Source: the human T2T-CHM13v2.0 reference genome, Homo sapiens
DNA: 64,000 nt
Reading direction: 5' to 3'
Assembly: GCA_009914755.4 (NCBI GenBank)
Contig: CP068257.2
Location: forward strand, 44,672,001 to 44,736,000
Shown here: piece after piece, positions 480-63,212 of the stretch
Position numbering within the stretch: the first letter of the stretch is position 1
Layout: the number at the start of each line of letters is the position of its first letter
Notes under the pieces: model-generated
The model's input: only the letters and a program-made list of their open reading frames with translations
Database searches by the model: none
Told to the model about the DNA's origin: nothing
Position numbers and translations under genes: made by a program

Positions 480-1130
480 AAGTTTCTGTGTGCGTGTAAG
501 GTTGTCATAGCCTTTGTGCAAGGTTGCAGTTTTGTGTGTGTGTAAGGTTGTCATAGCCTTTGTGCAAGGTTGCAGTTTCGTGTGTGTGTGTAAGGTTGTC
601 ATAGCCTTTGTGCAAGGTTGCAGTTTCGTGTGTGTGTGTAAGGTTGTCATAGCCTTTGTGCACGGTTGCAGTTTTGTGTGTGTGTAAGGTTGTCATAGCC
701 TTTGTGCAAGGTTGCAGTTTCGTGTGTGTGTGTAAGGTTGTCATAGGCTTTGTGCAAGGTTGCAGTTTTGTGTGTGTGTAAGGTTGTCATAGCCTTTGTG
801 CAAGGTTGCAGTTTCGTGTGTGCGTGTAAGGTTGTCATAGCCTTTGTGCAAGGTTGCAGTTTCGTGTGTGTGTGTAAGGTTGTCATAGGCTTTGTGCAAG
901 GTTGCAGTTTCGTGTGTGTAAGGTTGTCATAGCCTTTGTGCAAGGTTGCGGTTTTGTATGTGTGTAAGGTTGTCATAGCCTTTGTGCAAGGTTGCAGTTT
1001 TGTGTGTGTGTGTAAGATTGTCATAGGCTTTGTGCAAGGTTGCAGTTTCATGTGTGTGTGTAAGGTTGTCATAGCCTTTGTGCAAGGTTGCAGTTTTGTA
1101 TGTGTGTAAGGTTGTCATAGCCTTTGTTGC
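480..1130. repeat. Minisatellite, about 13 copies of a 46-50 bp unit (taaggttgtcatagcctttgtgcaaggttgcagttt(c/t)g(tg)n); the length varies with the internal (GT)n
   Basis: Read directly from the sequence: periodicity of 46-50 bp from about 497 to 1110. It produces the overlapping repeat ORFs 468..1142. Confidence 0.9.
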
Positions 1131-3529: not shown

Positions 3530-6500
3530 TGATTACTATTCTTGATTTAAAGTTAAACTCTAGATTAAATTCCTCCCGTGGTTAGCTTGGCCTGTGCCCG
3601 GGACTGAGTGGGGACAGCCACGCAAGTTAAACTCTAGATTAAATTCCTCCCGCGGTTAGCCTGACCCGTGCCCGGGACTCAGTGGAGTCAGCCACACAAG
3701 TTAAACTCTAGATTAAATTCCTCCCGCGGTTAGCCTGACCCATGCCCGGGACTCAGTGGAGTCAGCCACGCAAGTTAGACTCTAGATTAAATTCCTCCCG
3801 CGGTTAGCCTGACCCATGCCCGGGACTGAGTGGGGACAGCCACACAAGTTAAACTCTAGATTAAATTCCTCCCGCGGTTAGCCTGACCCATGCCCGGGAC
3901 TCAGTGGAGTCAGCCACGCAAGTTAGACTCTAGATTAAATTCCTCCCGCGGTTAGCCTGACCCGTGCCCGGGACTGAGTGGGGACAGCCACGCAAGTTAA
4001 ACTCTAGATTAAATTCCTCCCGCGGTTAGCCTGACCCGTGCCCGGGACTCAGTGGGGACAGCCACACAAGTTAAACTCTAGATTAAATTCCTCCCGCGGT
4101 TAGCCTGACCCGTGCCCGGAAGTGAGTGGAGTCGGCCACACAAGTTAAACTCTAGATTAAATTCCTCCCGTGGTTAGCCTGACCCATGCCCGGGACTCAG
4201 TGGGGACAGCCACGCAAGTTAAACTCTAGATTAAATTCCTCCCGCGGTTAGCCTGACCCGTGCCCGGGACTCAGTGGGGACAGCCACACAAGTTAAACTC
4301 TAGATTAAATTCCTCCCGCGGTTAGCCTGACCCGTGCCCGGGACTCAGTGGAATCAGCCACACAAGTTAAACTCTAGATTAAATTCCTCCCGCGGTTAGC
4401 CTGACCCATGCCCGGGACTCAGTGGAGTCAGCCACGCAAGTTAGACTCTAGATTAAATTCCTCCCGCGGTTAGCCTGACCCATGCCCGGGACTCAGTGGA
4501 GTCAGCCACACAAGTTAAACTCTAGATTAAATTCCTCCCGCGGTTAGCCTGACCCGTGCCCGGAAGTGAGTGGAGTCAGCCACACAAGTTAAACTCTAGA
4601 TTAAATTCCTCCCGCGGTTAGCCTGACCCGTGCCCGGGACTCAGTGGAGTCAGCCACACAAGTTAAACTCTAGATTAAATTCCTCCCGCGGTTAGCCTGA
4701 CCCATGCCCGGGACTCAGTGGAGTCAGCCACACAAGTTAAACTCTAGATTAAATTCCTCCCGCGGTTAGCCTGACCCGTGCCCGGGACTCAGTGGAGTCA
4801 GCCACACAAGTTAGACTCTAGATTAAATTCCTCCCGCGGTTAGCCTGACCCGTGCCCGGGACTCAGTGGAGTCAGCCACACAAGTTAAACTCTAGATTAA
4901 ATTCCTCCCGCGGTTAGCCTGACCCGTGCCCGGGACTCAGTGGAGTCAGCCACACAAGTTAGACTCTAGATTAAATTCCTCCCGCGGTTAGCCTGACCCG
5001 TGCCCGGGACTCAGTGGAGTCAGCCACACAAGTTAGACTCTAGATTAAATTCCTCCCGCGGTTAGCCTGACCCGTGCCCGGGACTCAGTGGGGACAGCCA
5101 CACAAGTTAAACTCTAGATTAAATTCCTCCCGTGGTTAGCCTGACCCATGCCCGGGACTCAGTGGGGACAGCCACACAAGTTAAACTCTAGATTAAATTC
5201 CTCCCGCGGTTAGCCTGACCCATGCCCGGGACTCAGTGGAGTCAGCCACACAAGTTAGACTCTAGATTAAATTCCTCCCGCGGTTAGCCTGACCCGTGCC
5301 CGGGACTCAGTGGAGTCAGCCACACAAGTTAAACTCTAGATTAAATTCCTCCCGCGGTTAGCCTGACCCGTGCCCGGGACTCAGTGGAGTCAGCCACACA
5401 AGTTAGACTCTAGATTAAATTCCTCCCGCGGTTAGCCTGACCCGTGCCCGGGACTCAGTGGAGTCAGCCACACAAGTTAGACTCTAGATTAAATTCCTCC
5501 CGCGGTTAGCCTGACCCGTGCCCGGGACTCAGTGGGGACAGCCACACAAGTTAGACTCTAGATTAAATTCCTCCCGCGGTTAGCCTGACCCGTGCCCGGG
5601 ACTCAGTGGAGTCAGCCACACAAGTTAAACTCTAGATTAAATTCCTCCCGCGGTTAGCCTGACCCGTGCCCGGGACTCAGTGGGGACAGCCACACAAGTT
5701 AAACTCTAGATTAAATTCCTCCCGCGGTTAGCCTGACCCGTGCCCGGGACTCAGTGGGGACAGCCACACAAGTTAAACTCTAGATTAAATTCCTCCCGCG
5801 GTTAGCCTGACCCATGCCCGGGACTCAGTGGGGACAGCCACACAAGTTAGACTCTAGATTAAATTCCTCCCGCGGTTAGCCTGACCCGTGCCCGGGACTC
5901 AGTGGAGTCAGCCACACAAGTTAAACTCTAGATTAAATTCCTCCCGCGGTTAGCCTGACCCATGCCCGGGACTCAGTGGAGTCAGCCACGCAAGTTAGAC
6001 TCTAGATTAAATTCCTCCCGCGGTTAGCCTGACCCGTGCCCGGGACTCAGTGGAGTCAGCCACACAAGTTAGACTCTAGATTAAATTCCTCCCGCGGTTA
6101 GCCTGACCCATGCCCGGGACTCAGTGGAGTCAGCCACGCAAGTTAGACTCTAGATTAAATTCCTCCCGCGGTTAGCCTGACCCGTGCCCGGGACTCAGTG
6201 GAGTCAGCCACACAAGTTAAACTCTAGATTAAATTCCTCCCGCGGTTAGCCTGACCCGTGCCCGGGACTCAGTGGGGACAGCCACACAAGTTAAACTCTA
6301 GATTAAATTCCTCCCGCGGTTAGCCTGACCCATGCCCGGGACTCAGTGGAGTCAGCCACGCAAGTTAGACTCTAGATTAAATTCCTCCCGCGGTTAGCCT
6401 GACCCGTGCCCGGGACTCAGTGGAGTCAGCCACACAAGTTAAACTCTAGATTAAATTCCTCCCGCGGTTAGCCTGACCCATGCCCGGGACTCAGTGGAGT

Positions 6501-8062
6501 CAGCCACACAAGTTAAACTCTAGATTAAATTCCTCCCGCGGTTAGCCTGACCCGTGCCCGGGACTCAGTGGAGTCAGCCACACAAGTTAGACTCTAGATT
6601 AAATTCCTCCCGCGGTTAGCCTGACCCATGCCCGGGACTCAGTGGAGTCAGCCACACAAGTTAGACTCTAGATTAAATTCCTCCCGCGGTTAGCCTGACC
6701 CATGCCCGGGACTCAGTGGAGTCAGCCACGCAAGTTAGACTCTAGATTAAATTCCTCCCGCGGTTAGCCTGACCCGTGCCCGGGACTCAGTGGAGTCAGC
6801 CACACAAGTTAAACTCTAGATTAAATTCCTCCCGCGGTTAGCCTGACCCGTGCCCGGGACTCAGTGGGGACAGCCACGCAAGTTAGACTCTAGATTAAAT
6901 TCCTCCCGCGGTTAGCCTGACCCGTGCCCGGGACTCAGTGGGGACAGCCACGCAAGTTAAACTCTAGATTAAATTCCTCCCGCGGTTAGCCTGACCCGTG
7001 CCCGGGACTCAGTGGAGTCAGCCACACAAGTTAGACTCTAGATTAAATTCCTCCCGCGGTTAGCCTGACCCGTGCCCGGGACTCAGTGGAGTCAGCCACA
7101 CAAGTTAGACTCTAGATTAAATTCCTCCCGCGGTTAGCCTGACCCATGCCCGGGACTCAGTGGGGACAGCCACGCAAGTTAGACTCTAGATTAAATTCCT
7201 CCCGCGGTTAGCCTGACCCGTGCCCGGGACTCAGTGGGGACAGCCACGCAAGTTAAACTCTAGATTAAATTCCTCCCGCGGTTAGCCTGACCCATGCCCG
7301 GGACTCAGTGGGGACAGCCACACAAGTTAAACTCTAGATTAAATTCCTCCCGCGGTTAGCCTGACCCGTGCCCGGGACTCAGTGGAGTCAGCCACGCAAG
7401 TTAGACTCTAGATTAAATTCCTCCCGCGGTTAGCCTGACCCGTGCCCGGGACTCAGTGGGGACAGCCACACAAGTTAGACTCTAGATTAAATTCCTCCCG
7501 CGGTTAGCCTGACCCGTGCCCGGGACTCAGTGGAGTCAGCCACGCAAGTTAGACTCTAGATTAAATTCCTCCCGCGGTTAGCCTGACCCGTGCCCGGGAC
7601 TCAGTGGGGACAGCCACGCAAGTTAGACTCTAGATTAAATTCCTCCCGCGGTTAGCCTGACCCGTGCCCGGGACTCAGTGGAGTCAGCCACGCAAGTTAG
7701 ACTCTAGATTAAATTCCTCCCGCGGTTAGCCTGACCCGTGCCCCGGACTCAGTGGGGACAGCCACGCAAGTTAAACTCTAGATTAAATTCCTCCCGTGGT
7801 TAGCCTGACCCGTGCCCGGGACTCAGTGGGGACAGCCACGCAAGTTAGACTCTAGATTAAATTCCTCCCGCGGTTAGCCTGACCCGTGCCCGGGACTCAG
7901 TGGAGTCAGCCACGCAAGTTAGACTCTAGATTAAATTCCTCCCGCGGTTAGCCTGACCCGTGCCCGGAAGTGAGTGGAGTCGGCCACGCAAGTTAGACTC
8001 TAGATTAAATTCCTCCCGCGGTTAGCCTGACCCATGCCCGGGACTCGGTGGAATCAGCCACC
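3530..8062. repeat. Large CpG-dense minisatellite (VNTR): about 61 tandem copies of a 74-bp unit (caagtt(a/g)aactctagattaaattcctcccgcggttagcctgaccc(g/a)tgcccgggactcagtgg(agt/gga)cagccac(a/g))
   Basis: Measured period of 74 bp (tagatt at 3561 and 3635). It runs uninterrupted for about 4.5 kb inside a YBEY intron. Each unit has 4-5 CpGs and a few recurring variant positions. Confidence 0.95.
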
Positions 8063-9520: not shown

Positions 9521-9589
9521 GTGACGGCCACCCACGGACTCTGTCACTTGCTGGGATTCACACACGGCACGGAGGCAGAGTGGCAGCAG
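9521..9589 (+). CDS. YBEY: YBEY coding exon ([23 protein letters not shown]) carrying the H-x3-H-x5-H zinc-binding motif of the UPF0054/YbeY family
   Basis: Acceptor attctgacag|GTG and donor CAG|gtaagg. The motif is [11 protein letters not shown]. 69 nt, phase 0. Confidence 0.9.
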
Positions 9590-10072
9590 GTAAGGAGCCC
9601 ATCCATCCCACTACCGAGGGGGTGCGTGGGGGAAGGAGGCTCCCCCAGGCCCCTGCCAGCCCCCACCCTCCATCCTGACCGCCCCCGCAGGAACTGGACC
9701 TCAGACCTGCCCTTGTAAAAATGACACAGATGTTTGCTTTCAACACCGGGCTCCCCTAATACTTCCAGCTGAATGTGTTCACTAAGGAAAGCGGTCTGAG
9801 TGCAGAGGCCGAGAGCCACAGCTGACACTAGCAAGTGGCGCTTGGTCAAAAAGGTCCAATCAGCTAGAGACTAGGCCAGACCCAGGGCGGAGGCGGGAGC
9901 TCTGCGTGGAGTGAGTTCCGGGTTGGTTTCCTCCAGACCCATGCGCTCCGCCTACGGAGGCCCACGTGGGCTCCGGTCCACATGGTTAACAGGCACACAA
10001 GCCCGTGTTGGGAGCAAACTGCTTCTCTGAAAGTCATGAAAAACCTTTTTCATTAAAAAAAGAAAAAGTTTG

Positions 10073-10683
<611 letters not shown>

Positions 10684-10898
10684 TTATTCTCCCGGCCTGT
10701 GGCGGTTCGTGCACTCGCTGAGCTCAGGTTCTGGTGAAGGTGCCCGGAGCCGGGTCCCGCCCTTCGGCCTGAGCTAGAGCCGCGCGGGCGGCCGGGTTCC
10801 CCCAAACCCTGTGGGAGGGGCATCCCGAGGAGGCGACCCCAGAGAGTGGGGCGCGGACACCTTCCCTGGGGAGGGCCAGCGCGCTTCCTTCCTTCCAG

Positions 10899-10994
10899 AT
10901 GTTCCAGAAGGAGAAGGCGGTGCTGGACGAGCTGGGCCGACGCACGGGGACCCGGCTGCAGCCCCTGACCCGGGGCCTCTTCGGAGGGAGCTGA
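10899..10994 (+). CDS. YBEY: YBEY terminal coding exon (MFQKEKAVLDELGRRTGTRLQPLTRGLFGGS, then TGA stop)
   Basis: Acceptor cttccttccttccag|ATG. It is in frame with the preceding exon. The TGA stop is at 10992-10994, followed by the 3'UTR. Confidence 0.9.
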   Translation: MFQKEKAVLDELGRRTGTRLQPLTRGLFGGS

Positions 10995-16004: not shown

Positions 16005-16057
16005 CTATTTGTTAAAGTGATAGAGCATTATAGGACCAGAGAACACGTGTGTCTGTA

Positions 16058-16335
16058 CACTGTGCAGGTCCCCGGGGCAGGCTCTGAGTCCGTCTGCACA
16101 CGGTGCGGGTCCCCGGGGCGCGCCCTGAGCCCGTCTGCACACGGTGCGGGTCCCCGGGGCGCGCCCTGAGCCCGTCTGCACACGGTGCGGGTCCCCGGGG
16201 CGCGCCCTGAGCCCGTCTGCACACGGTGCGGGTCCCCGGGGCGCGCCCTGAGCCCGTCTGCACACGGTGCGGGTCCCCGGGGCGCGCCCTGAGCCCGTCT
16301 GTACACGGTGCGGGTCCCCGGGGCGCGCCCTGAGT
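16058..16335. repeat. GC-rich minisatellite, about 6.7 copies of a 41-bp unit (cggtgcgggtccccggggcgcgccctgagcccgtctgcaca), ending directly in a 5'-truncated Alu
   Basis: Measured period of 41 bp (cggtgcggg at 16101 and 16142). The last unit runs into tctctactaaaaatacaaaaattagcc of an Alu at about 16335. Confidence 0.9.
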
Positions 16336-24959: not shown

Positions 24960-25460
24960 TATCTACCACCCATCCATCCACCCACCCATCCAACCAACCA
25001 ACCAACCAACCATCCACCCATCCATCCAACCAACCAACCAACCAACCAACCATCCACCCATCCATCCAACCAACCATCCACCCACTCATCCATCCACCCA
25101 TCCATCCACCCACCCATCCATCCAACCAGCCAACCAACCATTCATCCACCCACCCATCCACCCATCCAACCAACCACCCACCCATCTATCCACCTACCCA
25201 TCCATCCAACCAGCCAACCATCCAACCAGCCAACCAACCATTCATCCACCCACCCATCCATCCAACCAACCAACCATCCACCCACCCATCCATCCACCCA
25301 CCCACCCACCCATCCATCCACCCATCCACCCATCCACCCACCCATCCATCCACCCATCCACCCATCCACCTACCCAACCAACCAACCAACCAACCACCCA
25401 CCCATCCATCCACCCACCCATCCATCCAACCAGCCAACCATCTACCTACACATCCATTCA
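24960..25460. repeat. Complex tetranucleotide-type repeat (CCAT/CCAA/CCAC/CCAG)n of about 500 bp; G-rich (GGATGG/GGTTGG)n on the minus (C21orf58-transcribed) strand
   Basis: ccatccatccacccacccatccaaccaaccaacc..., read directly. It generates the low-complexity ORFs 24848..25489. A degenerate echo lies at about 25890-25912 inside an Alu. Confidence 0.9.
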
Positions 25461-25657
25461 TCCATCCAAGGAGAACTTTAAATGATTAACCCCAGACACT
25501 GAATAAATGGTTGAATGGAAAGGTACTTCAGTCTAGATATCACTTAGGATGTAGTATTTTTAATGTTTCCCACATTTCCTGTCTTTAGCGGGGTGGGCTG
25601 AGGCCTGGTTCCACCAATTCTGCTTTAATAGGAGCAACCAACACTTGGTATGGTGTT

Positions 25658-36399: not shown

Positions 36400-38800
36400 T
36401 TAAGGACGGCCTGCGCGAGGTCACCGGCCCTGTCTTGGTTTTTTGCCACTTCGCTCCAGTTAGTTTCCCAAGTTCCACCTACGCGCGCGCCAGCTGAGAA
36501 AACGCCCACCCCGGCGGTCCCGCCACAGGTCACAGGCGGTGCGGACCCCGGGACTGTGTCCGGGCTTCGGTGTCCAGAGAGCTCCAAGACACCCAAACCT
36601 TCCGTGGTTTCCACCTCTGCAAGCTTATGTTCCGCTGAGCTCAAGCTGAGGGACGACGACCTCATGCGACGTCAGTTTCCCCCTGGGACCACGAACCCAC
36701 GGCCCCATTTCTCTTCTGTCTACTAAAAACCTTTTCTTTTCTTTTTTTTTTGAGACCTAAGACATCAGTGAGACACACGAGCAGACACGGGCTCGGTCGG
36801 GAAAGGCGGGAGCTCCAAGCGGCGGGGCCTGCAGGTCCAGGCGGTTCGCGGGCTTTCTGACCGCATTCGGCCGAGTTCTTCTCTGAAGACCCAGGACCCC
36901 CGGCCGAGGGGGCGCATTCGGCGGGCTGGTGGCGTAGGATTTTGTTTCGGGTTCCCAGGGTCCCGGCAAGGGTGAGGGAGCCCTTGCGGATCCCCTGAGA
37001 TCCACCTCAGCAGCCTCCTCCGTGGTAGGCCTCAACTTCCCGCGGCGGCCCACAGCCAACGACTAATGCCTGAGCGGGAGAAAACGGCCTGGCCCTGTCC
37101 GGGTGGTTGCTGAGCACCGTTCGGCGCCGCCCGCGCCTGCAGGGAGCCCGGCCCGCTGTCCTGGTGGACACAAAGCCCAGGGGCCGCCCGCGCGGGACCA
37201 GCAGCGCGAACTTTTTGCCGCTCGGCCAGCCTGGCAGGGGATTTTAAAATCGGCCAATCACAGCGGGCGCCAGGCCTCCGCTTTCCGCTTACTGGTCCTG
37301 CCGTAGGAGGCGGGTACGTGAGCGCACCAATCTGTGGCCGGCGAGCGTAAAGGGCGGGGCTCCGCCCAGGCTGCACCGCCCAGAGCGCGCGTGCGCGAGA
37401 CCGGAAACGCAGCCCCCTGATTGGCGGCGCGTGTCGGGGGCGGGGCCGCGGCTGCGTGACAGTTGTCGCGGGGGAGGGCGAGCCCAAGCGCGGGGGAGGG
37501 AGTGTAAATAGAGCGAAGGCTGCTCTGTGTCAGCCCCGTCACCGCCGGGCGGCCCGCGCGGAGTCTGAGGGAGATGGAAGTTGAGCAAGAGCAGCGGCGC
37601 AGAAAGGTGGAGGCCGGGAGGACGAAGGTAAACATTAGGGGCTTCTTCTCTAGCTGCTCTGGCGTGAAGTCCTAAGGGCGGCTCCGGTGCCCGCCACCGC
37701 CCCCTGCCAGGAGAGGACGCGGTCCGGCGGAAGCCGCCGCGGAGGTCTCGCTTTTTCCCGCCGGCTCCGCTGGAAGCCGCCTCCTGGCCGCCGCCATCTT
37801 GAATCCGCCGCTCTCCGCCAGGTCCCGCCCCCGCCGCGGCCACAGCCAATCAGCGGCCGGGACGCGCGGCGCCTCTCGGGCGGGCCGGGGCGGGGCTGCG
37901 CCGCGCCTGCGTCGGGGGGTGGGTGGGGCGCGGGCTGGGCGCGGTGCACGCCGGGGCGGGGTGTGGCTGCAGGGCGGGGCTACAGGGGCGTGGCGTGGCT
38001 GCACGGAGGGGGTGGGGCGCGGCAGGCGCTGGACCCCAGGCTGGATCTTCCAGTGGCTCCCGCGTCCTCCGGGACCGGGTGGCCTGGGGCGGGCGGCCGG
38101 TATTCGGGTGGCTGCTTGGTCTAGGGCCAGTTTCCTGCGCGGCCGGGGCCGGGGGCGTGGCGCGGGTGGCCTGCAGCGCCTCCCCAGGGTGCGCCTTCGC
38201 CTCGTCCGTCGGAGATGCTTTCCCCGCGCGTTTCTCGCGGCGTTGCAGTCCTTACTGTGTGAAAGGCCCCCGCGGCGCTCCCGGCCGCCGTCTTCTTCCC
38301 GCGCCCTTGGGCTCGCGTCCTGCCCGTCCGGGCCTGGCGTAGCGCTGCCGGGAACGCACGCGGCGCTGGCGCCGGGCGCCTTCAAGGGACGCGCTCCCGT
38401 CTTTCTCCCGCCCCGGGTTTCTCCGTGAAAAAGCGCTCGGTTTGATGGCCACTGTCCTAGGTTTCGTGGGAATAAAGCGCGCAGAGCCCATGACTCGGGG
38501 GCAGGAGAAAGGGAGTCCCGAAAGCGCGAGGCGGAACCGCGGGAGCAGGCCGGCCTCTGCGAGGTGCGCGCGGCTCCCCCCCAGGATGTTCTGGCTGGGG
38601 TGCTGGGGAAGAGCGGGGCTCCCGGGCACGGCGGACAGGGGACGCGGGGCTAGGCCGGGGAAGGGCTGAGGCGGGCAGGAGGGGAAGGGGAGCCCGGAGC
38701 CTGCAGGGAGCTGCGAACAGGAGCAGAGCTCCCAGGAGGGTGGAGGGGGGAGGGAGGGACAAGACGCCGCCTGTAGGGCGACGCAGGCCGCAGACCAGGT
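36400..38800. promoter_or_regulatory. CpG island spanning the head-to-head C21orf58 (minus) and PCNT (plus) 5' ends; probable bidirectional TATA-less promoter extending into PCNT intron 1
   Basis: Very high GC and CpG density. CCAAT boxes at about 37253-37257 and 37846-37850, and an inverted CCAAT (ATTGG) at about 37421-37425. GC boxes (GGGCGGGG) at about 37350, 37437, 37878, 37955 and 37972. The PCNT ATG is at 37574. The long ORFs here are GC-rich artefacts. Confidence 0.8.
37574..37627 (+). CDS. PCNT: PCNT (pericentrin) exon 1 coding part (MEVEQEQRRRKVEAGRTK)
   Basis: ATG at 37574 and donor AAG|gtaaac at 37628. The N-terminus matches my memory of pericentrin. In frame with exon 2. Confidence 0.9.
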
Positions 38801-39729: not shown

Positions 39730-39942
39730 CTTGCTCACTTCCGACAGAGAAAAACAAAAGGTGACAGTTCGCATTCGGAGAAAAAGACGGCGAAGAGGAA
39801 GGGCTCGGCTGTCGATGCGTCTGTCCAGGAGGAGAGTCCGGTAACCAAGGAGGACAGCGCACTCTGTGGAGGAGGGGACATTTGCAAAAGCACATCATGT
39901 GACGACACCCCTGATGGGGCAGGAGGGGCCTTTGCAGCTCAG
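39730..39942 (+). CDS. PCNT: PCNT exon 2 (LAHFRQRKTKGDSSHSEKKTAKRKGSAVDASVQEESPVTKEDSALCGGGDICKSTSCDDTPDGAGGAFAAQ)
   Basis: Acceptor tttttgcgcag|CTT and donor CAG|gtagat. 213 nt, phase 0. Confidence 0.9.
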
Positions 39943-46185: not shown

Positions 46186-47655
<1,470 letters not shown>

Positions 47656-47751
47656 TCAGCACAGGCCTGCAGATAGAGGAGCTGGGAAGGGCCTGAGGCT
47701 GCAGCCCTAGACCTTGCTTTAAATGCTTCTTTCTGGTCCTCCCCTTCTTAG

Positions 47752-48162
47752 CCGGAGGACTGTGATGGAGAGAAGAGAGAGGACTTGGAACAGCTGCAGC
47801 AGAAGCAAGTCAATGACCATCCTCCAGAGCAGTGTGGGATGTTCACAGTCAGTGACCACCCACCAGAACAGCATGGGATGTTCACAGTCGGTGACCACCC
47901 ACCAGAACAGCGTGGGATGTTCACAGTCAGTGACCACCCACCAGAACAGCATGGGATGTTCACAGTCAGTGACCACCCACCAGAACAGCATGGGATGTTC
48001 ACAGTCAGTGACCACCCACCAGAACAGCGTGGGATGTTCACAATCAGTGACCACCAACCGGAACAGCGTGGGATGTTCACAGTCAGTGACCACACACCAG
48101 AACAGCGTGGGATCTTCACAATCAGTGACCACCCAGCAGAACAGCGTGGGATGTTCACAAAG
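47752..48162 (+). CDS. PCNT: PCNT exon 3 (PEDCDGEKREDLEQLQQKQVN followed by nine 13-aa DHPPEQxGMFTVS repeats ending ...GMFTK)
   Basis: Acceptor ccccttcttag|CCG and donor AAG|gtattc. 411 nt, phase 0. It contains the 39-bp coding tandem repeat. Confidence 0.9.
47815..48162 (+). repeat. PCNT: Coding minisatellite in PCNT exon 3: 39-bp unit, 8 full copies plus one 36-bp copy, encoding the 13-aa repeat DHPPEQ(C/H/R)GMFT(V/I)(S/G)
   Basis: Direct reading gives a period of exactly 39 bp. The copies differ at a few positions and the repeat ends at the splice donor. Confidence 0.9.
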
Positions 48163-48810
48163 GTATTCTTTAAGTTCTCTGTTAAGGTGTATTCTTTGTC
48201 AAAAGATTTCTTTATGTTGTAGAAATCCAAACCAGTGAGAGGACCTTCCATCTCTGCAGGGCCTCTCTTTAGAAGTGGAAACTGGAAGCATAGAGAGCTG
48301 GAGGCAGAGGCTCACCCTGTAGGCCCCACGTGCTGCCGCCTGCACGTTCTTAGTGTTGCCTGTGAATGGGAAGCCTCTCTTCATACCCTTCTCCCTGAGC
48401 TCAAATCTGCCTCCCTTGTGATCTTCCTTTTTTGTTTTTCCCATGGGACATTGAAGAGAAGCCACCCTTCATAAGTTTGAGGAATGTCATGAATTCCCTT
48501 TATTCTAGTTGCCCTTGTCGATTGACTCACCTGTCTGTTCAGCCTGTTTCTTAGGCCTGGTACCTCGTTTCTCACATCATCAGTTTGTGACTGGAAGTCC
48601 TGTGCCAGTTGAGAGCCTGGCAGGGCAGGGAGGCTGTGGTCAGTCTGCATGTCCCTGGTTTCTGCCACGTTCCTGGTGGGATGAATTCCATACGTGTTGA
48701 GTTGATTACCTTTATTTTATTGACATGTTTTTTGTTAGCATGTGGAGGAAAACATTAAGTTTGGAATTGACTACTTTTGAAGTGTTATGTTAAAAGCATA
48801 TATTTTAGGC

Positions 48811-59519: not shown

Positions 59520-59600
59520 GAGTGTGAACAAGAATGTGAACTTGCCATTACTGACCTGGAGAGCGGCCGTGAAGATGAGGCTGGCCTGCATCAGAGTCAG
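59520..59600 (+). CDS. PCNT: PCNT exon 4 (ECEQECELAITDLESGREDEAGLHQSQ)
   Basis: Acceptor ttttccccag|GAG and donor CAG|gtgacc. 81 nt. Confidence 0.9.
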
Positions 59601-60134
59601 GTGACCCGGCGGGGCCCGCACAGGCTCACAGCATGGGCTCTGTTATCCCCACAGGGCACAGTGGGCATCCGGGTGGGGGTGGGGTGGGCGCTGCCATCTC
59701 CTTTCTCTGCGTTGTCTGTTTCCACGTTCTGTGTGTGGGGCCATCAGCAGGGCCGGTGGAGGAGACACACGTGGATGCTGGGGGTCAGGGGGCTTGGTCA
59801 GGTGCAGGCCACATGAATGACACACTGACCTCAGGCCGGTTGCTCTCCCTGTCAGCTGCGAAGCCCCCTCCAGGTACACACAGTGCCGTCATACAGCGAG
59901 GGAATTCGGGGTGCTGGTGCTCAGGGCAGTGATGCGCTGTGGGGTCACTGGCAGAGGAGCTGGGTGGCATCTCAGTGGCATCCGGGCCTCTGTGTCCTGC
60001 CCCTGCTTCCACGGGATGTCTGCTGTTTCATTTTCTGTGTCTTCCTTACTCATTCTCATTCATGCTTCTGTGTCTCCCTGATGCGCCCTGGTTCTGACCA
60101 TGGGCCCTTATCAGAGGCCTTTTCTCCACCGCAG

Positions 60135-60390
60135 GCCGTGCATGGCCTTGAGCTGGAGGCGCTGCGCCTGAGTCTGAGCAACATGCACACGGCGCAGCTG
60201 GAGCTGACACAGGCCAACCTCCAGAAGGAGAAGGAGACGGCATTGACGGAGCTGCGGGAGATGCTCAACAGCCGGCGTGCCCAGGAGCTGGCCCTGCTAC
60301 AGAGCAGGCAGCAGCACGAGCTGGAGCTCCTCAGGGAGCAGCACGCACGGGAGAAGGAGGAGGTGGTGCTCAGGTGTGGACAGGAAGCAG
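60135..60390 (+). CDS. PCNT: PCNT exon 5 (AVHGLELEALRLSLSNMHTAQLELTQANLQKEKETALTELREMLNSRRAQELALLQSRQQHELELLREQHAREKEEVVLRCGQEA, plus 1 nt); start of the coiled-coil region
   Basis: Acceptor tttctccaccgcag|GCC and donor GCA G|gtactg. 256 nt. Confidence 0.9.
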
Positions 60391-60848: not shown

Positions 60849-60904
60849 CTGAGCTGAAGGAGAAGTTACAATCAGAAATGGAGAAAAACGCCCAGATAGT
60901 AAAG
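60849..60904 (+). CDS. PCNT: PCNT exon 6 ((A)ELKEKLQSEMEKNAQIVK)
   Basis: Acceptor ttttcttgcag|CT GAG and donor AAG|gtaccc. 56 nt; it restores phase 0. Confidence 0.9.
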
Positions 60905-61645: not shown

Positions 61646-61895
61646 TTAGGCCTTGCGTGCAGAGGCTCGTCTGTTTCGGGGTGGGTGGTCCTTGTGCAGA
61701 GGCTGGTCTGTTTCAGGGTAGGTGGTCCTCTCGCTTTGTGCAGATGCAGGTCTGTTTTGGGGTGGATGGTCCCTGTGCAGAGGCTGGTCTGTTTCAGGGT
61801 GGGTTGTCCCTGTGCAGAGGCTGGTCTGTTTCAGGGTGGGTGGTCCTCGTGTGCAGATGGCAGTCTGTTTTGTGGTGGGTGGTCCTTGCTCACTT
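61646..61895. repeat. Tandem repeat of about 6 copies of a 38-42 bp unit (gtgcagaggctggtctgtttcagggtgggtggtcc(t/c)(t/c)gt) in PCNT intron 6
   Basis: Read directly; the units are imperfect, with the variant gtgcagatgcaggtctgttttggggtgg. Confidence 0.8.
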
Positions 61896-62403: not shown

Positions 62404-62578
62404 ACCCTGAAGGAAGATTGGGAATCTGAAAAAGATTTATGTTTAGAAAATCTACGCAAAGAACTGTCTGCAAAGCATCAATCAGAAATGGAGGATTTAC
62501 AAAACCAGTTTCAGAAAGAATTGGCAGAACAGAGAGCTGAGTTGGAGAAGATTTTTCAAGACAAAAACCAGGCTGAAC
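62404..62578 (+). CDS. PCNT: PCNT exon 7 (TLKEDWESEKDLCLENLRKELSAKHQSEMEDLQNQFQKELAEQRAELEKIFQDKNQAE, plus 1 nt)
   Basis: Acceptor tcttttaaattag|ACC and donor GAA C|gtaagt. 175 nt. Confidence 0.9.
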
Positions 62579-63075: not shown

Positions 63076-63212
63076 GGGCCCTTAGGAACCTGGAGAGTCA
63101 TCATCAAGCAGCCATTGAGAAGTTACGTGAAGACCTGCAGTCCGAGCACGGCCGGTGTTTAGAAGACTTGGAGTTCAAGTTCAAAGAGAGCGAGAAAGAA
63201 AAACAGCTGGAG
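63076..63212 (+). CDS. PCNT: PCNT exon 8 ((R)ALRNLESHHQAAIEKLREDLQSEHGRCLEDLEFKFKESEKEKQLE)
   Basis: Acceptor ctttacctttctag|GG GCC and donor CTG GAG|gtgggc. 137 nt, ends in phase 0. Confidence 0.9.

What the first reader, a model, noticed from the sequence alone, without database searches (positions are those of the whole stretch)
47815..48162. PCNT exon 3 is largely a coding 39-bp minisatellite (nine DHPPEQxGMFTVS repeats)
Of the 411-nt exon, 348 nt are nine tandem 13-codon units that are near-identical at the DNA level (period exactly 39 bp, so in frame). The array terminates precisely at the splice donor.

DNA-level identity this high means copy-number change by unequal crossover or slippage is expected. 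This window shows only one haplotype. Any 39-bp multiple keeps the frame, so alleles with different repeat numbers should be tolerated and could be misread as indels.

PCNT is the primordial-dwarfism (MOPD II) gene, so benign repeat-number variation versus pathogenic frameshifts in this exon matters for variant interpretation. Intragenic Pro/Gln/His-rich repeats at the N-terminus may also be a low-complexity interaction module.
Basis: partly seen in the sequence, partly recalled or inferred. Interest (0 to 1): 0.55.

Follow-up and report, generated by a model that had tools for sequence, protein, structure and literature searches.

The report
Known PCNT exon 3 coding minisatellite
The third exon of the human pericentrin gene is mostly a 39-base unit repeated nine times in frame; this is a real but already catalogued length-variable coding repeat, and this window has one more copy than the standard human reference.

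Summary
A 39-bp tandem array (9.0 copies, 92% match, no indels) fills 351 of the 411 nt of an exon at 47752-48162. Spliced with seven neighbouring exons, it translates to human pericentrin.

The same array, with an identical consensus unit, is listed by Mukamel et al. 2021. It is one of 118 high-confidence protein-coding VNTRs with heritable length variation in UK Biobank exomes. It has 8 repeats in hg38 and hg19.

The window has 9. Deleting any one 39-bp frame starting at 47913-47990 reproduces two human UniProt pericentrin entries exactly (448/448 residues). So 8- and 9-copy alleles are both seen.

Camel, mink and an unnamed mammal have a single unit. The array therefore arose by tandem amplification of the ancestral 3' end of the exon.

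Two small corrections apply. In its natural register the array ends 3 nt (codon AAG) before the donor. Nothing here supports a functional "interaction module": there is no Pfam family, the structure model has low confidence, unit-to-unit substitutions do not depart from neutral expectation (small sample), and no UK Biobank association is listed.

Verdict: ordinary and already known. Its practical relevance is for indel calling in a disease gene.

The parts
47752..48162 (+). PCNT exon 3 (third exon from the ATG exon): 411 nt, phase 0 at both ends, AG acceptor and GT donor
   Evidence: Its translation matches human pericentrin entries P0001 and P0085 except for one extra 13-aa unit.
47809..48159 (+). 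The coding minisatellite: nine complete in-frame 39-bp units, consensus GTCAGTGACCACCCACCAGAACAGCGTGGGATGTTCACA = VSDHPPEQRGMFT
   Evidence: TRF, (47808-48159, 9.0 copies, 92% match). Unit table. The consensus is identical to the unit listed for PCNT by Mukamel et al. 2021.
47913..48028 (+). Zone that holds the extra unit relative to the 8-copy reference. There is a 77-nt tract of perfect period-39 identity. Any 39-bp deletion starting at 47913-47990 (78 equivalent placements) gives the same 8-copy allele.
48160..48164 (+). Last codon AAG (Lys), which is not part of the repeat, followed by the GT of the splice donor (AAG|GTATTC)
37574..37627 (+). PCNT exon 1 coding part (ATG..), inside a CpG island
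39730..39942 (+). PCNT exon 2
59520..59600 (+). PCNT exon 4
60135..60390 (+). PCNT exon 5 (start of the conserved LELEALRLSL... coiled-coil block)
60849..60904 (+). PCNT exon 6
62404..62578 (+). PCNT exon 7
63076..63212 (+). PCNT exon 8

Best explanation
This is the known polymorphic coding minisatellite (VNTR) in exon 3 of human PCNT (pericentrin).

**Origin.** An ancestral single 13-codon segment at the 3' end of the exon, still single in camel and mink, was amplified in tandem in the lineage leading to humans. The last codon (AAG) and the donor were left untouched.

**Why length changes are tolerated.** The unit is 39 bp (13 codons) and contains no stop codon. Gain or loss of whole units therefore keeps the reading frame and only lengthens or shortens a poorly conserved N-terminal segment of pericentrin by 13 residues.

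**Mechanism of copy-number change (inferred, not shown).** Copy number probably changes by out-of-register pairing of units, either replication slippage or unequal sister-chromatid or homologue exchange. The homogeneous centre of the array is the likely site. The window's allele has one more unit there (9) than GRCh38/hg19 (8), and the extra unit is a perfect copy of its neighbour.

**Likely consequence (inferred).** The variation is most likely selectively near-neutral and clinically benign.
For: **Shown**
- Array anatomy and significance.
- Gene identity: 448/448 residues match human pericentrin after removing one unit.
- hg38/hg19 hold 8 repeats with the identical consensus unit. The locus is one of 118 high-confidence coding VNTRs with heritable depth variation in UK Biobank: IBD2 R 0.271, filter threshold 0.25.
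- The 9-versus-8 difference maps to a 77-nt tract of perfect period-39 identity.
- Camel P0004, Mustela P0007 and Logan P0005 have one unit, aligned to the two ends of the human array.
- Edge units carry more private changes (5, 3, 2, 2) than central ones (0-1). The R/H/C codon varies by CpG transitions.

**Supporting near-neutrality**
- There are 9 nonsynonymous and 4 synonymous variant states. pN/pS is 0.58, not different from the neutral expectation (p = 0.32).
- No Pfam family reaches its cutoff, and there is no PDB relative.
- The AF2 model has pLDDT 49.7.
- PCNT is absent from the table of significant VNTR-phenotype associations.
Against: - The UK Biobank signal is barely above the filter (0.271 against 0.25), with an implausible imputation R2 estimate (1.727). 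That study's length estimates for this locus are therefore noisy.
- Only two allele states (8 and 9) were seen here, and no allele frequencies are available.
- I could not compare the window's DNA with a human reference. Its human origin rests on protein identity.
- The slippage or unequal-exchange step is inferred from anatomy.
- The neutrality test has very little power (13 variant states).
Confidence: 0.88

Rival explanations
1. The repeat is real but fixed in length. On this reading, the 8-versus-9 difference is an assembly or annotation artefact: collapse of two identical units in the older reference, or a spurious duplication in the assembly this window comes from.
For: The two units concerned are 100% identical, with a 77-nt perfect period-39 tract. 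This is the situation in which assemblers collapse or expand repeats. The population evidence is weak: IBD2 R is 0.271, just above the 0.25 cutoff.
Against: The array is only about 350 bp, well within Sanger or long-read length. hg19, hg38 and two UniProt entries agree on 8. The locus passed a heritability filter in exome siblings. The extra unit is exactly in register.
Confidence: 0.06
2. The window comes from a non-human ape. In that case 9 versus 8 is a between-species difference and says nothing about human polymorphism.
For: No tool here holds a human or ape genome for a DNA comparison. One intronic or alternative-exon base also differs from the GRCh38-based model (His versus Arg at the alternative acceptor).
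Against: All 448 codons outside the extra unit translate identically to human pericentrin. One nucleotide difference in about 800 nt is in the range of human heterozygosity. Human polymorphism at this locus is independently reported.
Confidence: 0.07
3. The repeat is a selected functional module, a repeated short linear motif or beta-rich interaction domain, and its copy number tunes pericentrin function. This does not exclude it also being a VNTR.
For: The frame is kept open, and the GMFT core is nearly invariant across units. AF2 places one beta-strand per unit. The array lies in the N-terminal region, where Lin et al. 2014 (PMC4034690) predict the SPM and CM1 gamma-tubulin-complex-binding motifs.
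Against: Three non-primate mammals have one unit, and the marmot and colugo gene models have no exon 3 equivalent. pLDDT is 49.7. No Pfam family was found, and CM1 (PF07989) was not detected even at E <= 10. pN/pS does not differ from neutral. No UK Biobank association is listed. The array is open in 4 of 6 frames, so an open frame is weak evidence.
Confidence: 0.08

Closest known systems
PCNT coding VNTR in Mukamel et al. 2021 (bioRxiv 10.1101/2021.01.19.427332, Suppl. Table 1): VNTR_HG38_chr21_46334453_46334765
   Same: It is the same locus: gene PCNT, intra-exon, period 39, and an identical consensus unit AGTCAGTGACCACCCACCAGAACAGCGTGGGATGTTCAC.
   Different: hg38 has 8.0 copies (313 bp). 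The window has 9.0 (352 bp). This is a different allele of the same VNTR.
Other small in-frame coding minisatellites from the same catalogue, e.g. PER3 (54 bp, 4.7 copies in hg38) and MACF1 (39 bp, 14.2 copies)
   Same: They share the tandem in-frame units of tens of bp inside one exon, and length changes in whole units.
   Different: The gene and peptide differ. No trait association is listed for the PCNT array, whereas MACF1 appears in the association table.
Large-effect coding VNTRs (ACAN, MUC1, LPA KIV-2)
   Same: They belong to the same class of variant, protein length polymorphism by unit number.
   Different: Those arrays are much longer, highly multiallelic and have strong phenotype effects. 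The PCNT array is short, with only 8 and 9 copies seen here and no known effect.
Single-copy orthologous exon end in Camelus dromedarius and Mustela lutreola pericentrin
   Same: It is the homologous segment...QQKLDG-DH-LEQPGVIT-K aligns to the left and right ends of the human array.
   Different: There is one unit instead of 8 or 9. This is the inferred ancestral state.

Membership tests
Coding minisatellite / protein-coding VNTR | Head-to-tail tandem copies of a unit of about 10-100 bp | tested here: met
   TRF: period 39, 9.0 copies, 92% match, no indels. Lag-39 identity 0.927 against 0.259 in shuffles.
Coding minisatellite / protein-coding VNTR | Lies inside coding sequence, the unit is a multiple of 3, and the frame stays open through the array | tested here: met
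   39 = 13 codons. The exon is 47752-48162, phase 0-0, and its translation equals human pericentrin.
Coding minisatellite / protein-coding VNTR | Copy number varies among individuals of the species | tested here: met
   The window has 9 copies; hg38/hg19 and two human UniProt entries have 8. Heritable length variation was reported in UK Biobank exomes. Caveats: only two states were seen, the population signal is weak, and the window's human origin is inferred.
Human PCNT (pericentrin) gene, exon 3 | The spliced product is pericentrin, and the exon is third in order | tested here: met
   Best database hits are named Pericentrin, Homo sapiens. Identity is 448/448 after removing one unit. Exon order is given.
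Conserved protein repeat domain (functional module) | The repeat is conserved in orthologues, recognised as a family, and has a confident fold | tested here: not met
   Camel and mink have one unit. No Pfam hit reaches its cutoff. No PDB relative was found. pLDDT is 49.7. Representative-library hits are unrelated period-13 repeats.
Linker between SPM and CM1 motifs of SPM-CM1-PACT gamma-tubulin complex receptors (Lin et al. 2014) | The array lies between a recognisable SPM and a recognisable CM1 motif | tested here: inconclusive
   The paper predicts both motifs in the PCNT N-terminus, but the text read gives no coordinates. Pfam CM1 (PF07989) was not detected in residues 1-461 at E <= 10. The conserved blocks flanking the array (res 19-43 and LELEALRLSL...) are visible, but their identity as SPM or CM1 is my inference.
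Pathogenic repeat expansion locus | Extreme alleles are associated with disease | not testable with these tools
   No gnomAD, ClinVar or patient data are available. Literature searches found nothing.

The most novel reading that the evidence does not exclude
Unit number, or use of the in-frame ACA|GTCAGT cryptic donors present in five units next to a weak authentic donor, changes the spacing between the conserved N-terminal basic motif and the first conserved coiled-coil block of pericentrin. These are the predicted SPM and CM1 gamma-tubulin-complex-binding elements. Unit number would then act as a primate-specific quantitative modifier of centrosomal microtubule nucleation, with subtle effects on growth or brain-size traits.
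Probability: 0.04. Interest if true: 0.5.

Novelty: already known. Interest (0 to 1): 0.18.

Why it matters
The value is practical, not conceptual. PCNT loss-of-function causes MOPD II (established knowledge), and exon 3 contains a repeat where whole-unit 39-bp indels are normal alleles.

- The extra unit can be placed at 78 equivalent positions. Variant callers and HGVS normalisation can therefore report the same benign allele in many ways, or mis-align reads into apparent frameshifts.
- The reference (8 copies) is only one of at least two human alleles.
- Evolutionarily, it is a tidy example of a lineage-specific exon-end amplification, from 1 unit to 8 or 9.

It opens no long-standing question.

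Tried and rejected
- **Protein search with the exon alone.** It gave no hits. This was a false negative, because P0001 and P0085 contain the repeat and are in that database. The repeat-rich query is handled poorly.
- **Representative-library HMMER search.** All 69 hits are unrelated period-13 repeat proteins. No further orthologue was found, so copy number in other primates could not be obtained.
- **Metagenome scan for the unit.** It returned 0 contigs, so no independent human or primate haplotypes from host contamination.
- **PDB search.** Nothing was found.
- **Pfam.** Only sub-threshold noise was found.
- **AF2 single-sequence model.** Confidence was too low to justify a fold search.
- **DNA secondary structure as a driver of slippage.** z = -1.13, not distinctive.
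- **PRDM9-type hotspot motif.** There is none in the array. The nearest is in an Alu at 47322-47334.
- **Literature searches.** I searched for PCNT with VNTR, tandem repeat, in-frame, 39 bp, HGVS names and kendrin repeats. Nothing specific turned up. Two DOIs are not held.
- **Higher-order 78-bp periodicity.** Lag-78 identity of 0.934 against 0.927 at lag 39 is not convincing.

Full report
**Observation**

The sequence at 47600-48400 shows an obvious 39-bp periodicity.
- TRF reports one array at 47808-48159: period 39, 9.0 copies, 92% matches, no indels, score 592.
- Lag-39 identity is 0.927. In 2000 shuffles it is 0.259 +/- 0.024, with a maximum of 0.339. Lags 38 and 40 give 0.21. The array is far beyond chance.

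The surrounding exon runs 47752-48162. It is 411 nt, has an AG acceptor and a GT donor, and is phase 0 at both ends. It translates without stops to PEDCDGEKREDLEQLQQKQVN followed by the repeats.

In the register that captures the most repeat (47809 onward, also in frame) there are nine complete units, V[S/N/G]DHPPEQ[R/H/C]GMFT, 351 nt. These are followed by one non-repeat codon AAG and then the donor. The statement that the array ends exactly at the donor is therefore off by one codon.

**Identity**

A tblastn probe with the pericentrin sequence as I recalled it located eight collinear exons. I then fixed their boundaries from splice sites and phases: 37574-37627, 39730-39942, 47752-48162, 59520-59600, 60135-60390, 60849-60904, 62404-62578 and 63076-63212.

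The label does not rest on memory.
- The spliced 461-aa product finds proteins named pericentrin. The best hit is UniRef A0A8V8TQ91_HUMAN, and its cluster mate is A0A8Q3SI04_HUMAN.
- After removing one 39-bp unit, the window's product is identical to the first 448 residues of A0A8Q3SI04, which is all of exons 1-8. It is also identical to residues 1-240 of A0A8V8TQ91.
- Alu-type repeats in the window fit a primate.
- Complete protein identity, plus a single base difference in an alternative-acceptor segment, fits a human haplotype other than GRCh38. I could not compare DNA directly.

**Copy number**

Both human UniProt entries have eight units and the window has nine. The extra unit is a perfect copy of its neighbour; units 4 and 5 are 39/39 identical.

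A 77-nt tract has perfect period-39 identity. Because of it, a 39-bp deletion starting anywhere from 47913 to 47990 (78 placements) gives the same 8-copy sequence.

Independently, Supplementary Table 1 of Mukamel et al. 2021 (bioRxiv 10.1101/2021.01.19.427332) lists VNTR_HG38_chr21_46334453_46334765.
- The entry reads: hg19 21:47754367-47754679, gene PCNT, intra-exon, period 39, 8 repeats in hg38.
- The listed unit is AGTCAGTGACCACCCACCAGAACAGCGTGGGATGTTCAC, letter for letter the TRF consensus.
- It is one of 118 coding VNTRs retained because exome read depth showed heritable length variation in UK Biobank siblings and the locus survived filters against larger CNVs.
- Its sibling correlation (0.271) is just above the 0.25 filter, and its imputation R2 estimate (1.727) is not meaningful. 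The population signal is therefore weak.
- PCNT does not appear in that paper's table of significant VNTR-phenotype associations, and the supplementary files were stored uncut.

**Origin**

Pericentrin N-termini from Camelus dromedarius (P0004), Mustela lutreola (P0007) and an unnamed Logan assembly (P0005) have a single unit...QQKLDG DH-LEQPGVIT K.... In the alignment this unit splits across the two ends of the human array.

The marmot and colugo gene models lack the exon altogether. The whole segment between the conserved N-terminal basic block and the LELEALRLSL coiled-coil block is evolutionarily labile.

The array is therefore a tandem amplification of the ancestral exon end that preserved the last codon and the donor.

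Two features of unit variation are typical of such arrays.
- Edge units carry more private substitutions (unit 1: 5; units 7-9: 3, 2, 2) than central ones (0-1). This is the usual pattern of arrays homogenised internally by out-of-register exchange.
- The variable R/H/C codon is CGT/CAT/TGT, that is, CpG transitions.

I could not obtain other primate sequences, so the date of the amplification is open.

**Mechanism**

The following points are shown:
- in-frame 39-bp units;
- two human allele lengths that differ by exactly one unit, in the most homogeneous part of the array;
- single-copy outgroups.

The following points are inferred:
- Length change occurs by replication slippage or unequal exchange between misaligned units.
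- The variation is near-neutral.

For neutrality, 9 nonsynonymous against 4 synonymous variant states among units give pN/pS 0.58. This is not distinguishable from neutral (p = 0.32), and power is low.

The array as single-stranded DNA folds no better than shuffles (z = -1.13). It contains no PRDM9-type motif. Neither feature explains instability.

**Function of the peptide**

Nothing supports a structured or conserved module.
- No Pfam family reaches its threshold.
- No PDB relative was found.
- A single-sequence AF2 model has pLDDT 49.7. It shows one beta-strand per unit, which should not be trusted.
- An exhaustive HMMER search finds only unrelated proteins with 13-residue periodicity.
- The array is open in four of six frames, so openness by itself is not evidence of selection.

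Lin et al. 2014 (PMC4034690) predict SPM and CM1 gamma-tubulin-complex-binding motifs in the PCNT N-terminus. The array may sit between them. However, the text read gives no coordinates, and Pfam's CM1 model does not hit this sequence. This remains a lead only.

**Comparison and verdict**

This is the catalogued PCNT coding VNTR, seen here as a 9-copy allele against the 8-copy reference.

The cross-species and cross-haplotype test it proposed comes out in its favour.

It is not novel. Its interest is practical, namely ambiguous placement of benign 39-bp in-frame indels in a disease gene.

**Searches that gave nothing**
- The exon-only protein search was a false negative.
- The metagenome scan returned no contigs.
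- Several literature searches found nothing specific.
- Two DOIs were not held.

Noticed in passing
window 3550-8061: A very large, homogeneous minisatellite of 74 bp x 61 copies, 96% match. It lies between exons at 2400-2537 and 9521-9592 / 10896-10991 (+). Those exons match a YbeY-family endoribonuclease (Pfam PF02130, 62.8 bits). It is therefore an intronic VNTR of the upstream gene.
   Followed up: partly
window 481-1127; 16051-16334; 24966-25469; 61657-61888: Further tandem arrays: 48 bp x 13.8 (92%); a GC-rich 41 bp x 6.9 (96%); (CCAT)n of about 500 bp; and 37 bp x 6 (79%) in PCNT intron 6. The window is unusually rich in minisatellites.
   Followed up: no
window 48163 and 47848, 47926, 47965, 48004, 48082: The authentic exon 3 donor AAG|GTATTC scores low on a rough donor matrix recalled from memory (-0.1 bits; other exons in the window score from -0.3 to 4.2). 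Five units contain ACA|GTCAGT in phase 0 (-1.05 bits). Cryptic use of these sites would give in-frame, repeat-shortened mRNAs. The scoring is approximate and was not validated.
   Followed up: partly
window 60115-60134 (upstream of exon 5): An alternative AG acceptor at 60113-60114 gives the frame-shifted tail RPFL(R)RRPCMALSWRRCA of UniProt A0A8V8TQ91. The window encodes His (CAC) where that entry has Arg (CGC). This is one CpG-type base difference from the GRCh38-based model.
   Followed up: partly
window 37000-38500: A CpG island over PCNT exon 1 and the promoter: GC 0.71-0.74, CpG observed/expected 0.94-1.0.
   Followed up: no
window 47752-48162 (tool behaviour): The word-indexed protein search with the repeat exon alone returned nothing, although two human pericentrin entries containing the repeat are in that database. 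Repeat-dominated queries can give false negatives there.
   Followed up: yes
exons 3 and 4 equivalents in P0002, P0003, P0004, P0005, P0007: The exon 3/exon 4 region differs greatly between mammals. Camel and the Logan species lack the exon 4 peptide. Mink has a longer insert after it. The marmot model lacks both, and the colugo model lacks exon 3. Some of this may be gene-model error.
   Followed up: no
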